Virus record (IMG/VR): IMGVR_UViG_2531839027_000011
Length of the DNA: 16,154 bases
Source of the DNA: a virus
Taxonomy: Duplodnaviria > Heunggongvirae > Uroviricota > Caudoviricetes
Reading direction: 5' to 3' (one strand)
Positions 6,001 through 16,154 of the stretch are shown piece by piece; position 1 is the first letter of the stretch, and each line of letters starts with the position of its first letter. Position numbers: made by a program.

Positions 6001-9000
6001 GTTCGCCGTCACTGGGCGCAAAATAATTTTTAGGGTTAACTCCCTTCATGTACAATGCGCGCATCTCACCGACGATAACACGCGCGTCCTTCAGTGAAGT
6101 AGACGGATAGCGCCCGACAGTAAGACGTACTGGCTTACCATTCCAGCGATAACGGTACTGAAACGTGATAGTTCCTGCTGGAGTAATCCGCACACTTAAC
6201 CCGTCACCATCGGTGATTTCAGCAGGGCCAGAGTAGGGTTTTCCGTAGAGGCCTCGTAGTTTGGTGTCGCTCAGTGCCAATGCTTTATATCCTGTACACA
6301 AGTTTATAATGTATTCTGTACTCAATATGTACGCATTAGCAAGTGAACAAAACACTTTTCAACGCAAAAGAAGATAATCAACCATGAACAAAAACAAACT
6401 TACACCTTGATTTTAAAACCATAAAGACGGTATTATCAGTCATATGGTGAACAACCAAAATCAATACGCAACAATGTCCTCTTAGTTAAATGGATATAAC
6501 GAGCCCCTCCTAAGGGCTAATTGCAGGTTCGATTCCTGCAGGGGACACCATTTATCAGTTCGCCTCCATCCGTACCAGTCCGCAAAATCCCCTGAATATC
6601 AAGCCTTCCGTAGATTCACAGTTCGTCATGGTTCGCGTCAGATCGTTGACAGCCGCACGCCATGACGGGTAAAAAGTGGATAAAATAATTTTACCCACCG
6701 GATTTTTACCCATGCTCACCGTTAAGCAGATTGAAGCAGCAAAGCCGAAAGAAAAACCATACCGCCTACTCGATGGTAATGGCCTGTACCTTTATGTCCC
6801 TGTATCAGGGAAAAAGGTATGGCAGCTTCGCTACAAGATTGACGGTAAGGAGAAAATCCTGACCGTCGGAAAATATCCGCTTATGACTTTGCAAGAGGCA
6901 AGGGATAAAGCATGGACTGCGAGGAAAGACATCTCGGTTGGCATCGATCCGGTAAAGGCGAAAAAGGCTTCGTCTAACAACAATTCCTTTAGTGCGATTT
7001 ACAAGGAATGGTACGAGCATAAGAGGCAAGTCTGGTCAGCCGCCTATGCGACTGAACTTGCAAAAATGTTTGATGACGACATTTTACCTATCATCGGCGG
7101 CCTTGAAATTCAGGATATTGAGCCGATGCAACTGCTGGAAGTAATCCGCAGATTTGAAGATCGCGGGGCAATGGAGCGAGCCAACAAAGCACGCAGAAGA
7201 TGCGGCGAGGTTTTCCGTTACGCTATTGTCACCGGAAGGGCTAAATATAACCCGGCACCTGACCTTGCTGAAGCCATGAAGGGATACCGCAAGAAGAACT
7301 TCCCGTTTTTACCTGCCGACCAGATCCCGGCATTCAACAAAGCACTTGCAACATTTTCAGGAAGTATCGTATCTCTCATTGCGACCAAAGTTTTACGCTA
7401 CACAGCACTAAGAACGAAAGAGCTTCGTTCCATGCAATGGAAGAACGTCGATTTTGAAAACAGGATTATCACCATCGAGGCCAGTGTGATGAAGGGACGC
7501 AAGATTCATGTGGTTCCGATGTCGGACCAGGTTGTTGAACTTCTCACTACGCTAAGCTCCATCACTAAACCAGTATCAGAGTTTGTTTTTGCCGGGCGCA
7601 ACGATAAGAAGAAGTCAATCTGTGAGAACGCTGTACTGCTTGTGATCAAACAAATCGGCTATGAAGGTCTGGAAAGCGGTCACGGATTCAGGCATGAATT
7701 CAGCACGATTATGAACGAGCACGAATGGCCTGCTGACGCTATTGAAGTGCAACTAGCACATGCCAACGGCGGATCTGTGCGTGGGATTTACAACCATGCT
7801 CAGTATCTCGATAAGCGCAGAGAAATGATGCAGTGGTGGGCGGACTGGCTTGATGGGAAGGTGGAGTAGTTATTACAACGATTCTTATAAAAAAGAAAAG
7901 CCTTGCACATATAGCAAAGCTTTTCACTTCTCAGGATTTCTTACACCAAGAAACCATCAACAATAACAAAATGCAATTATTATATGTTAACTACATATGC
8001 ATTTCATTAAAACCAATCATAAATGCTTATCATACTTTAATTGCTATAATTGATTGCCTTCTATTTTTTCAACTCGAGTGGTTGAAACATCATTCTTAAA
8101 TCCACTCCACCATTTTCTTAGCTTATTGTTTATTGGCTTTTCAAAAAACAAATACATCATTATTGATATAAATAATGAAGCAAACAGAGCCATTACTATA
8201 AATTTAATTACACTTATAGCACCAAGACCAGAAACATTAAAGAACTTGCTCAATGTACTGATTACTATAGTATGGACCAAGTAAAATGAAAAAGAAGCAT
8301 CACCTAAAAGTATCATAACTTTATTTGATATTATTTTTGAAATAATACCACCATTAAACGAAAACACTAATATTGAAAAGGCCATTGATGGTATAAAAAG
8401 CGCATCATACTGTAATCCATTGCTATTTTGACTTTTTGCCACCATATAGACAGACATTAGGATAAAGACTACAGATGATATTTCAGCAAATGATAGAACT
8501 AAATATGACGGCTTTGACTTAAACTCAAAATCTCCGGCCTGATTGCTGCGGATTGTCTCTGCCAGCCTGCCTCGGTCAATCTCACGACCAGCCATCTTGT
8601 CCTGAACATTGAAGTAGTCAATCGGACCGAGAGCAGCCATCCCAAGGTGATAAACAAACTCACCAAACCCTGAAGGATTCTGCTGATACATCTGAGCAAC
8701 GTTGTTAGGGTCAACACCGACGCGCGCCAGTTCCTTGGCGTTGTTTTGCAGCCATGATTGCATTGCTTCTGGAGACGAGGCCGCAAGGCGTGCGCCAGCC
8801 GCTAAGGTGCCGATAGAATTGCGCTGGTCTTCGTCTGCCCACTTCATACCAGACTGAATCTTCTCTAATTGACCAGGATATTTGGTCATCAGATCTCGAA
8901 CCTGCTGTCGATCGCCGGACTGGATGGCTGCCGCATATTCTTTTTGGAATGCAGCATCCGCTTCCTGTTGCTTTGCGGCTTGAGATGTTTGAGCGACACT

Positions 9001-15000: not shown

Positions 15001-16154
15001 CAACGCTTGGGGGCACCTATTGGGGCACTCACCAAAATCGAAAGAGAAATAAACTACAATTCAAATTGTTAGCTAATTTTTCGATTCCTGCAGGGACACC
15101 AGATACCCTTCAAACCAAATCTACCTTCATCCCGTAAACGATGGGTTTGGCAGCACACTTGCCCTATATCTACTCATTTTTACTGCAACAGGTTGAAATC
15201 TCAGCACTGTCAGAAAGCGCTGATGACTAAACAGCCCAGGGCCGGGCGATGTAACCATCACACAGAATCCTGATAGCGAAATACGGCGTGACTCGATACT
15301 TCACTCCGCAATGCATTCCTTGATGAATTCGCAGGCCCGTGATACACGGGACAGGTCGCAGAATGACGACAATGTCCTGGAAATCAGCGAACCGTGTATC
15401 CGGAGTACATTTGAGCGACTGTACCAGAACATGAATGAGGTGTTTGGATTAGGCGATTATTAGCAGGGCTAAGCATTTTAGTATTATTATTTTCCGGTTG
15501 AAGGATATGGAGATATCGACAACAACCGGAAAAAGTTTACGTCTATATTGCTGAAGGTACAGGCGTTTCCATAACTATTTGCTCGCGTTTTTTACTCAGG
15601 AAGAAAATGCCAAATAGCAACATCAGGCAGACAATACCCGAAATTGCGAAGAAAACTGTCTGGTAGCCTGCGTGGTCAAAGAGTATCCCAGTCGGCGTTG
15701 AAAGCAGCACAATCCCAAGCGAACTGGCAATTTGAAAACCAATCAGAAAGATCGTCGACGACAGGCGCTTATCAAAGTTTGCCACGCTGTATTTGAAGAC
15801 GGATATGACACAAAGTGGAACCTCAATGGCATGTAACAGCTTCACTAATGAAATAATCCAGGGGTTAACGAACAGCGCGCAGGAAAGGATACGCAACGCC
15901 ATAATCACAACACCGATAAGTAATGCATTTTTTGGCCCTACCCGATTCACAAAGAACGGAATAATCGCCATGCACAGCGCTTCGAGTACCACCTGGAATG
16001 AGTTGAGATAACCATACAGGCGCGTTCCTACATCGTGTGATTCGAATAAACCTGCATAAAAGACAGGAAAAAGTTTGAACCGCCCCGGGAATCCTGGAGA
16101 CTAAACTCCCTGAGAAAGAGGTAAACAGGATGACTAAAAATACACGTTTTTCCC

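What the first reader, a model, noticed from the sequence alone, without database searches (positions are those of the whole stretch)
6476..15101. About 8.5 kb island delimited by argW and a decayed copy of its 3' end
A degenerate ~30-bp copy of the tRNA 3' end at 15072-15101 (one G deleted, T-stem 5' half lost) lies in direct orientation to argW, as expected for the distal att site of an element integrated into the tRNA. The interior lacks capsid, terminase, portal and lysis genes and contains truncated and fused genes. The element is therefore a defective remnant that has since acquired unrelated cargo, and the decayed att copy suggests it may no longer excise.
Basis: partly seen in the sequence, partly recalled or inferred. 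Interest (0 to 1): 0.45.

Follow-up and report, generated by a model that had tools for sequence, protein, structure and literature searches.

The report
Known O157 Sp16 remnant, two fused elements
The 8.55-kb island next to the argW tRNA gene is real, but it is the already catalogued, non-excising prophage remnant Sp16 of E. coli O157:H7; it is best read as two neighbouring mobile elements welded together by a deletion, not a phage remnant that later picked up cargo.

Summary
tRNA-Arg(CCT) lies at 6476-6550. A direct copy of its last 23 bases, missing one G, lies at 15080-15101. A synthetic "empty site" (argW joined to 15102 onward) occurs in one piece in 1468 of 5426 E. coli genomes, so the boundaries are exact. 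The segment is 99.99% identical to the Sakai feature annotated "prophage Sp16; P22-like phage" (8551 bp). Sp16 was reported in 2009 not to circularise. The finding is therefore already known.

The refinement concerns origin. 6551-10852 is a remnant of an Sf6/HK620-type phage. It has the attL arm, an IntS 98% identical to Sf6 Int, four late genes, one fused gene and one truncated gene. 10853-15101 is 98% collinear with the right part of a separate argW island that is intact in other strains. That island carries its own integrase, AlpA, a rolling-circle Rep, a variable cargo slot and a serine recombinase.

The bases left of 15080 are that island's arm, not decayed tRNA. The predicted tandem precursor exists in 36 genomes. 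The "cargo" is native to the second element. Excision most likely fails because TorI and the matching attR arm were deleted.

The parts
6476..6550 (+). argW, tRNA-Arg(CCT). Its 3' end carries the attL cores: 6528-6550 is the 23-nt core of the Rep island, and 6536-6551 is the 16-nt Sf6/HK620 core CTGCAGGGGACACCAT.
   Evidence: ARAGORN. Cores from the Sf6/HK620 annotation and from intact islands.
6551..6711 (+). Int-proximal attL arm of an Sf6/HK620-type phage, including the int promoter region.
   Evidence: Window 6536-7863 is 97.2% identical at the nucleotide level to Sf6 (H40).
6712..7869 (+). intS, an intact 385-aa tyrosine integrase.
   Evidence: Pfam Arm-DNA-bind_3, Phage_int_M and Phage_integrase. 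98% amino-acid identity to Sf6 Int.
8044..8530 (-). 3' remnant of a low-GC Acyl_transf_3 (O-antigen acetylase-type) gene. It forms the C-terminal part of the fused ORF 8044-9180.
   Evidence: Pfam PF01757 over residues 230-343, E=6e-6, below the gathering score. GC is 0.29. The 7870-8530 stretch occurs only in the 309 O157/O55-lineage genomes.
8531..9180 (-). 5' 217 codons of a P22-family middle ejection protein (gp20 position). It forms the N-terminal part of the fused ORF.
   Evidence: PF16928 over residues 12-217. Residues 1-214 align with 1-214 of the 449-aa CUS-3 protein. Phage homology starts at 8531.
9190..9870 (-). P22 gp7-type ejection protein, intact.
   Evidence: PF25688, E=6e-90.
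9857..10327 (-). DUF2824 protein (P22 gp14 position), intact.
   Evidence: PF11039, E=8e-65.
10324..10852 (-). Sf6-type tail needle knob gene lacking its 5' third. The fusion breakpoint is 10852|10853.
   Evidence: PF16532. The full-length gene in strain 0H26 is 849 nt. The junction is intact only in 309 O157/O55 genomes, and the two halves occur separately elsewhere. There is no real microhomology at the join.
10853..11571 (+). 3' two-thirds of the rolling-circle (HUH) Rep gene of a second argW island. The ORF 10876-11571 corresponds to Rep residues 120-350.
   Evidence: 97% identical to residues 120-350 of the 350-aa Rep. Pfam REP_ORF2-G2P on the full protein. Collinear with L011.
11572..12056 (+). 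Conserved non-coding stretch downstream of Rep, carrying AT-rich repeats. Function not tested.
   Evidence: Conserved at 94% in L009 and L010 up to the cargo slot. Repeats D1 and I5.
12241..13653 (-). 470-aa cargo gene (Sakai ECs_3238) in the island's variable slot, about 12057-13808. Low GC, function unknown.
   Evidence: Same gene in the same slot of the intact island in strain '4'. Other islands hold SIR2/ThsA-like, GapS6a/b, ParA or other genes there. No Pfam or PADLOC hit. 233 homologs.
13840..14016 (-). Conserved 58-aa ORF of the island's right-end module.
   Evidence: Annotated in every carrier examined.
14319..14945 (+). 208-aa small serine recombinase (resolvase/invertase type), intact.
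   Evidence: Pfam Resolvase plus HTH_7. PHROG DNA invertase.
14946..15079 (+). Island-side arm of attR. It belongs to the Rep island, not to the Sf6-type phage and not to the tRNA.
   Evidence: Aligns with the arms of the intact islands L009, L010 and L011. Unrelated to the TorI-side arm of L007.
15080..15101 (+). attR core: a 22-nt copy of the 23-nt tRNA 3' end, with one G missing.
   Evidence: The one-G deletion is confined to 313 O157/O55-lineage genomes; 148 other carriers have the 97-nt (intact) version.
15102..15542 (+). Right flank. This is the sequence that directly follows argW in empty-site genomes. It includes a DUF4942 gene fragment at 15281-15463.

Best explanation
Window 6551-15101 is prophage remnant Sp16 of the E. 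coli O157:H7/O55:H7 lineage, integrated at the 3' end of argW. It is a chimera of two unrelated argW-specific elements that once lay in tandem.

Element A (6551-10852) comes from an Sf6/HK620-type P22-family phage. It keeps the int-side att arm, intact intS, and the distal end of the late operon: needle knob (truncated), DUF2824, a gp7-type protein and a gp20-type protein. The gp20-type gene is fused by an internal deletion to the tail of an acyltransferase gene.

Element B (10853-15101) is the right 4.25 kb of an ~8-kb non-phage integrative island. The island's full layout is argW, a P4-type integrase, a hypothetical gene, AlpA, three small ORFs, an HUH rolling-circle Rep, a variable cargo slot, a 58-aa ORF, a small serine recombinase and attR.

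Inferred history: B integrated at argW. A then integrated into the regenerated tRNA, giving argW-[A]-hybrid att-[B]-attR. One illegitimate deletion running from inside the needle gene to codon ~112 of Rep then removed most of the phage, torI, the hybrid att, and B's integrase and AlpA. All of this predates the O55:H7/O157:H7 split.

Consequence, inferred but consistent with experiment: IntS still has its attL. However, the only partner site has a foreign arm, a core one base short, and no excisionase. The segment is therefore locked in place and is inherited as chromosome.

Shown here: the boundaries, the chimerism, both breakpoints, the existence of both intact parent types and of the tandem form, and identity to Sp16. 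Inferred: the order of events and the cause of non-excision.
For: Boundaries and empty site.

Identity to Sp16: window 6472-16075 is 99.99% identical to Sakai, where 8551 bp are annotated 'prophage Sp16; P22-like phage'.

Element A: 97% nucleotide identity to the Sf6 int region. IntS is 98% identical to Sf6 Int. Pfam hits to P22-family late proteins. The gp20-type N-terminus is confirmed.

Element B: window 10853-16075 aligns without a break at 98.05% to the intact island of strain '4', including the 470-aa gene. The same modules with other cargo occur in L009, L010, L023 and L024. The 231-aa ORF equals Rep residues 120-350.

Breakpoint 10852|10853: intact only in 309 genomes, all of the sampled rows O157:H7, O55:H7 or unserotyped strains at 100% identity. 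The two halves occur separately in about 700 others.

attR: intact islands have a perfect 23-bp repeat and the same arm.

Prediction test: a synthetic hybrid junction (TorI-side phage arm + core + island int-side arm) was found in one piece in 36 genomes. WCHEC000837 shows a full prophage plus the island in tandem.

No torI and no cognate attR arm in the window.

Literature: the IntS/TorI/attL/attR module, with TorI essential for excision (PMC3509656). Sp16 scored Int +, Xis -, replication defective, and negative for circularisation, replication and packaging (PMC2669165).
Against: No genome was found with the tandem form carrying exactly this phage allele (with its acyltransferase) together with the 470-aa cargo. 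The precursor is therefore inferred from analogues.

The order of integration and the number of deletions cannot be read from the end product.

The acyltransferase remnant has no intact relative in the E. coli or phage collections, so that part of element A is assigned to the phage by position only.

The crossover position within the IntS core is not known to me, so the effect of the missing G is unquantified.

Excision was tested experimentally only in strain Sakai.
Confidence: 0.85

Rival explanations
1. One reading: a single phage integrated at argW, decayed, and later acquired unrelated cargo genes by separate insertions. The distal att is that phage's own attR, worn down by mutation.
For: The island has one intact integrase and one pair of att-like ends. 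The low-GC block at 11750-13750 looks foreign.
Against: The distal arm and core belong to a different element with its own integrase. The 'cargo' sits in that element's normal slot in an intact copy that is 98% identical. A genuine Sf6-type attR (L007) has a different arm and starts its tRNA identity at CTGCAGG, not at TTCGATTCC. No IS or target duplication flanks the cargo.
Confidence: 0.05
2. Chimeric, but not formed by tandem integration plus deletion. The right half would have been brought in by recombination, for example homologous exchange through the shared downstream flank and core plus one illegitimate join. This would have replaced the right end of an older phage remnant.
For: The end product only requires one non-homologous joint at 10852|10853. 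The right-end 1.3 kb is more diverged from strain '4' (95%) than the rest (98%), which hints at mosaicism.
Against: This route needs two coordinated events where tandem integration plus deletion needs one. Tandem arrays of exactly these two element types exist in 36 genomes, so the substrate for a simple deletion is common.
Confidence: 0.1
3. Sp16 is still mobile at low frequency. IntS would act with a TorI-like excisionase supplied in trans by another prophage, recombining attL with the 22-nt core.
For: intS is intact and attL is 97% Sf6-like. 15 of the 16 core bases are present at attR. In Sakai some prophages lacking a functional Xis still excise (PMC2669165).
Against: No circular form was detected for Sp16 with or without mitomycin C (PMC2669165). 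The attR arm is foreign. The island is 100% conserved in position and sequence in about 309 genomes of the lineage.
Confidence: 0.04
4. The 15080-15101 match is chance similarity and the segment is ordinary chromosome.
For: None beyond the short length of the repeat.
Against: 0.01 matches are expected by chance. 1468 genomes join argW directly to 15102. Intact elements end at the same base.
Confidence: 0.01

Closest known systems
Prophage Sp16 of E. coli O157:H7 Sakai (annotated in NC_002695.2; studied in Asadulghani et al. 2009, PMC2669165)
   Same: It is the same object: 99.99% identity over 9604 nt, the same 8551-bp extent, the same genes ECs_3231-3240. It is described as chimeric or highly disrupted, Int +, Xis -, replication defective, and not circularising.
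   Different: Nothing in the sequence differs apart from one mismatch. The published description calls it P22-like or possibly lambdoid-derived. In what I read, it does not resolve it into a phage part and a non-phage Rep-island part. In this window's strain a second prophage also sits on the 5' side of argW.
KplE1 (CPS-53) of E. coli K-12 and phages HK620, Sf6 and CUS-3: the argW recombination module (attL, attR, IntS, TorI)
   Same: Same tRNA target, same 16-bp core CTGCAGGGGACACCAT, the same attL arm (97% nucleotide identity) and an IntS 98% identical to Sf6 Int.
   Different: torI and the TorI-side attR arm are missing. The right-hand att belongs to another element. KplE1 excises with IntS plus TorI (PMC3509656). 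Sp16 does not (PMC2669165).
[not shown]
   Same: Window 10853-15101 is its right part: Rep C-terminus, the same 470-aa cargo as strain '4', the 58-aa ORF, the recombinase, the arm and the core.
   Different: The window lacks the island's integrase, AlpA, three small ORFs and the first ~111 Rep codons. Its core has lost one G. I found no published name for this island family, which does not prove there is none.
Tandem prophages and islands at one tRNA site (for example Sp17a/Sp17b in Sakai, PMC2669165)
   Same: Successive integrations into the tRNA regenerated at attL give arrays. Such an array of exactly these two element types is seen in 36 genomes.
   Different: Here the array has collapsed through an internal deletion, so only the outer ends of the two elements survive.

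Membership tests
tRNA-integrated genomic island or prophage (att-flanked) | A tRNA gene at one end with an integrase gene next to it. | tested here: met
   argW at 6476-6550 and intS at 6712-7869.
tRNA-integrated genomic island or prophage (att-flanked) | A direct repeat of the tRNA 3' end at the far end. | tested here: met
   22 of 23 nt at 15080-15101, against 0.01 matches expected by chance.
tRNA-integrated genomic island or prophage (att-flanked) | Related genomes have an empty site that joins the two flanks exactly. | tested here: met
   1468 of 5426 genomes, in one piece (L005 and L006).
Prophage Sp16 (O157 Sakai) | Same locus, extent and sequence as the annotated Sp16 feature. | tested here: met
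   99.99% identity over 9604 nt. The Sp16 feature is 8551 bp and lies immediately after argW.
KplE1/HK620/Sf6 argW recombination module | IntS-type integrase and the int-side attL arm with the 16-bp core. | tested here: met
   98% amino-acid and 97% nucleotide identity to Sf6. The core lies at 6536-6551.
KplE1/HK620/Sf6 argW recombination module | A TorI/HkaC excisionase gene at the other end. | tested here: not met
   No torI is annotated in the island, and blastn of the window against L007 (which carries torI) finds nothing there.
KplE1/HK620/Sf6 argW recombination module | A cognate attR: the TorI-side arm joined to the intact core. | tested here: not met
   The arm at 14946-15079 matches the Rep island, not L007, and the core lacks one G.
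P22-family (Lederbergvirus) prophage | A head, portal, terminase, tailspike, lysis and immunity gene set. | tested here: not met
   Only four late genes remain, one fused and one truncated. Compare the complete CUS-3.
argW Rep island (Int-AlpA-HUH Rep-cargo-Ser recombinase) | Its own P4-type integrase and AlpA next to the tRNA. | tested here: not met
   Both are absent from the window. Homology to the island starts at 10853, inside Rep.
argW Rep island (Int-AlpA-HUH Rep-cargo-Ser recombinase) | The right-end module: Rep 3' part, cargo slot, 58-aa ORF, serine recombinase, arm, 23-bp core. | tested here: met
   Collinear at 98.05% with L011. The core is 22 of 23.
Anti-phage defence gene (for the 470-aa cargo) | Match to a known defence family, or demonstrated protection against phage. 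| tested here: not met
   No PADLOC or Pfam hit. Only context supports it: the slot holds ThsA-like SIR2 and GapS6 in other islands. Protection is not testable with these tools.

The most novel reading that the evidence does not exclude
The right 4.25 kb would be the fossil of a so-far unnamed family of small (~8 kb) argW-specific integrative elements with the layout P4-type Int, AlpA, HUH Rep, cargo slot, serine recombinase. The single slot would swap anti-phage systems: SIR2/ThsA-like and GapS6a/b are seen there. On this reading, the 470-aa ORF (ECs_3238), fixed in the whole O157:H7/O55:H7 lineage, is a new stand-alone defence protein, possibly with an N-terminal PIN-like nuclease domain. 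It also travels as an integron-type cassette in Vibrio and Stutzerimonas. The deletion that locked the element in place would then have domesticated it.
Probability: 0.3. Interest if true: 0.5.

Novelty: already known. Interest (0 to 1): 0.2.

Why it matters
As a discovery it matters little. Sp16 has been in the Sakai annotation since the genome was published, and its failure to excise has been measured.

The useful part is the corrected reading. It shows how two unrelated elements that target the same tRNA can collapse into one apparent "prophage" with mismatched ends. That explains mechanistically why Sp16 is fixed, and warns against reading every att-flanked block as a single element with later cargo.

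It also flags an intact, lineage-wide gene of unknown function (ECs_3238). This gene sits in a slot that holds known defence systems in other strains, which makes it a cheap candidate for a phage-resistance test in a major pathogen.

Tried and rejected
Cargo function:
- PADLOC and Pfam gave no hit for the 470-aa, 231-aa or 77-aa ORFs.
- The AlphaFold2 model of the 470-aa protein was poor (mean pLDDT 57.8).
- A profile search of PDB sequences gave only noise (E about 0.009 to PCNA).

Acyltransferase remnant:
- The phage collection has only a 71% partial hit to the TL-2011b O-acetyltransferase.
- No E. coli genome outside the O157/O55 lineage carries the stretch. Its parent remains unidentified.

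Literature:
- Searches for a published name for the Rep island or for an argW defence hotspot found nothing specific.

Other dead ends and rejected ideas:
- My first guess at the far end of the upstream prophage overshot. One search corrected it.
- I rejected the idea that GCTAATT at 15072-15078 is surviving tRNA sequence. It needs a gap, it is absent from every other allele of the arm, and substitutions are spread along the whole AT-rich arm.
- I looked for a leftover hybrid att inside the island and found none. The 15-mer core with up to 3 mismatches occurs only at 6536.
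Full report
**What the window is.** The window matches E. coli O157:H7 chromosomes at 99.9-100%. It has one tRNA gene, tRNA-Arg(CCT) (argW), at 6476-6550 on the + strand. On the 5' side lies the end of a lambdoid prophage. On the 3' side lies the segment in question.

**Check of the observation.**
- The last 23 bases of the tRNA (6528-6550, TTCGATTCCTGCAGGGGACACCA) recur in direct orientation at 15080-15101 with one G of the G4 run missing.
- The 15-mer TTCGATTCCTGCAGG occurs only at these two places with up to 2 mismatches allowed. 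0.01 matches are expected by chance.
- For the empty-site comparison, I joined argW to window 15102-15500 in silico and searched 5426 complete E. coli genomes. 1468 of them hold this junction as one uninterrupted piece.
- In L005 the order is yfdC, argW, DUF4942 fragment, cscB, cscK, cscA, cscR. At the base level the tRNA's final ...GGGGACACCA is followed directly by GATACCCTTCAAACC, the sequence at 15102.
- The island is therefore 6551-15101, and its boundaries are exact.
- The interior holds no capsid, portal, terminase or lysis genes. It does hold fused and truncated genes.

**It is a known object.** The RefSeq record of strain Sakai annotates an 8551-bp feature, "prophage Sp16; P22-like phage", starting immediately after argW. 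Window 6472-16075 is 99.99% identical to that region, with one mismatch in 9604 nt. Asadulghani et al. [quoted passage not shown] They score it Int +, Xis -, replication defective, and negative for circularisation, replication and packaging. A later long-read survey counts Sp16 among the nine Sakai prophages that showed no evidence of excision (PMC5359411).

**The left half is an Sf6/HK620-type phage remnant.**
- From the core at 6536 to the end of intS, the DNA is 97.2% identical to Sf6 and 95.7-96.4% identical to HK620, CUS-3 and other P22-family phages.
- The annotated attP core of Sf6 and HK620 is CTGCAGGGGACACCAT. It lies at 6536-6551.
- IntS (6712-7869) is intact and 98% identical to Sf6 Int.
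- Four late-operon genes converge on it from the - strand. They are a gp20-position ejection protein, a gp7-type ejection protein, a DUF2824 protein and an Sf6-type needle knob.
- The first of these is a fusion. Residues 1-214 align with the first 214 residues of the 449-aa CUS-3 protein. Residues 230-343 match the end of the Acyl_transf_3 profile, below Pfam's gathering score. The joint is at 8530|8531. The DNA to its left has 29% GC.
- That acyltransferase remnant occurs only in the 309 genomes of this lineage. It has no close relative among the deposited phages.
- The needle gene lacks its 5' third. The intact gene is 849 nt in strain 0H26.

**The right half is the end of a different element.**
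- Homology to phage needle genes stops at 10852. From 10853 the sequence matches a gene that RefSeq names "rolling circle replication-associated protein" in other strains.
- A 501-nt probe across this point is intact in 309 genomes. All of the sampled rows are O157:H7, O55:H7 or unserotyped strains at 100% identity. In roughly 700 other genomes only the left 253 nt or only the right 248 nt are present.
- In strain '4' (L011), argW is followed by an ~8.1-kb island. Its parts in order are: a 428-aa P4-type integrase, a 240-aa protein, AlpA, three small ORFs, a 350-aa HUH Rep, a 470-aa gene on the opposite strand, a 58-aa ORF, a 208-aa serine recombinase and a perfect 23-bp copy of the tRNA end.
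- Window 10853-16075 aligns to this island and its flank without a break at 98.05%.
- The window's 231-aa ORF equals Rep residues 120-350 at 97% identity.
- The island's integrase is only 31% identical to IntS.

**The cargo is native to the second element.** The same island frame occurs in other strains with different genes between Rep and the 58-aa ORF.

| Strain | Genes in the cargo slot |
|---|---|
| O157/O55 lineage, strain '4', NJS001 | 470-aa gene |
| 24AR0142, WCHEC000837 | 330-aa and 821-aa proteins |
| MB07011 | 826-aa SIR2 protein; hits ThsA models at E=2e-12 |
| NT1F25 | ParA-family protein |

So the "unrelated cargo" sits in the normal variable slot of the second element. It was not acquired by the phage remnant.

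**The distal att.** In the four intact islands whose right ends I read at base level (L009, L010, L011), the sequence left of the core reads ...ATTCAAATTGTTAATTTATTT or a close variant. The window reads ...ATTCAAATTGTTAGCTAATTT. Intact islands never contain the T-stem 5' half at this position. Across genomes, 313 carry the O157 version with the missing G. 148 other carriers have a version one base longer. By contrast, a genuine right end of an IntS-type prophage (L007) has a different arm, next to torI, and starts its tRNA identity only at CTGCAGG.

**Test of the tandem model.** If Sp16 arose from a phage and an island lying in tandem, the intermediate site should join the TorI-side phage arm, the core and the island's int-side arm. 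I built that 615-nt junction from L007 and L009 and searched with it. 36 genomes contain it in one piece at 97-98.5% identity. In WCHEC000837, a full P22-like/lambdoid prophage ending in torI is followed directly by the island's integrase, AlpA, Rep, cargo, recombinase and attR, and then by the DUF4942 fragment and the csc genes. A single deletion from inside the needle gene to codon ~112 of Rep in such an array yields the present structure. The joint shows no useful microhomology, so the event was illegitimate recombination. No hybrid att remains inside the island. NJS001 and O55:H7 strains carry the identical island, so the fusion predates O157:H7.

**Why it does not move (inference).** Ansaldi and co-workers define the recombination module of KplE1, HK620 and other argW phages as attL, attR, IntS and the excisionase TorI. 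TorI is essential for excision and binds five sites in attL (PMC3509656). Sp16 keeps attL and IntS. It has no torI. Its only partner site carries the arm of an element whose integrase is 31% identical to IntS, with a core one base short. The island's own integrase and AlpA are gone, and Rep is truncated. This accounts for the negative circularisation result in Sakai better than the loss of one G alone does. Which defect is decisive was not tested.

**The 470-aa cargo gene.**
- It has 233 homologs at 55-85% identity scattered over Gamma- and Betaproteobacteria, with no Pfam domain.
- In Vibrio vulnificus it lies in a long same-strand array of small unrelated genes. In Stutzerimonas it is the second called gene, after a 67-aa ORF, beside a divergent 320-aa tyrosine recombinase. 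Both settings look like integron cassette arrays.
- Given what else occupies the slot, a defence role is plausible but unproven.

**Verdict.** The finding is real and precisely located, but it is the known Sp16. It is wrong about the origin of the right half and about what the bases left of 15080 are. Novelty: already known. The chimeric resolution and the island family are modest additions.

Noticed in passing
window 1-6499 (integrase 5111-6280 on the - strand; shared block 6475-6499): A second, lambdoid prophage occupies the 5' side of argW. It is the type reported for Stx2a phages at argW (PMC3519850) and has early-left genes and its own integrase. Its att core is the first ~25 nt of the tRNA region (TGTCCTCTTAGTTAAATGGATATAA). 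In strain Rafaela_II the far junction beside yfdC, about 37 kb away, keeps the native upstream region plus a one-mismatch copy of that block. The full-length tRNA in the window is therefore cut off from its original promoter region. UCPROB-002 has this phage with an empty 3' site, so the two elements are independent.
   Followed up: partly
window 6407-6436: A promoter-like site, TTGATT-18-TATTAT, lies in phage DNA about 40 nt upstream of argW. It is a candidate replacement promoter for the tRNA. This is a consensus match only: 3 were found in the scanned region against 1.2 expected.
   Followed up: partly
window 16076-16154: The last 79 nt (TGAACCGCCCCGGGAATCCTGGAG...ATGACTAAAAATAC) do not continue the cscB sequence seen in Sakai and most O157 genomes, where matches stop at 16075. 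Four genomes cover them only through a separate piece that overlaps an IS1203 (IS629-type) transposase. The source strain apparently has this IS inserted in the sucrose transporter gene.
   Followed up: partly
window 15281-15463: A 60-codon DUF4942 gene fragment lies between attR and cscB. It is also present in empty-site genomes. Strains with dsdC-dsdX-dsdA lack both it and the csc genes. It may be a scrap of a still older insertion at argW that brought the csc cluster.
   Followed up: partly
window 11758-11977: The conserved non-coding DNA just downstream of the Rep gene holds three AT-rich 23-nt direct repeats (11758, 11811, 11909) and an inverted pair containing ACGTCAAC-GTA-ACGTCAAC (11865-11884 / 11958-11977). 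This could be the island's replication origin.
   Followed up: no
window 14184-14200 / 14300-14316: A 17-nt inverted repeat (88% complementary) brackets the 100 nt immediately upstream of the serine recombinase gene. It could be an operator or a recombination site (I7).
   Followed up: no
L014 8001-9413; L017-L019 8001-9401: Homologs of the 470-aa cargo gene sit in integron-like cassette arrays in Vibrio vulnificus and Stutzerimonas. In the latter it is the second called gene, after a 67-aa ORF, beside a 320-aa tyrosine recombinase.
   Followed up: partly
L010 16864-19066: In MB07011 the island's right end is duplicated: recombinase, a 263-aa ORF, then a second, degraded recombinase copy. This suggests that recombinase-linked modules can stack there.
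   Followed up: no
L023 12305-23129: In NT1F25 the Rep island is followed by a third element. It has a disrupted integrase, DUF262, a SLATT plus nucleotide-binding pair, and a Qat system. argW there carries a multi-element array rich in defence genes.
   Followed up: no
L011 8709-9761: RefSeq annotates only a 215-aa 'replication protein' in strain '4' (and a 215-aa hypothetical protein in O157), although the full 350-aa Rep ORF is open in strain '4'.
   Followed up: yes
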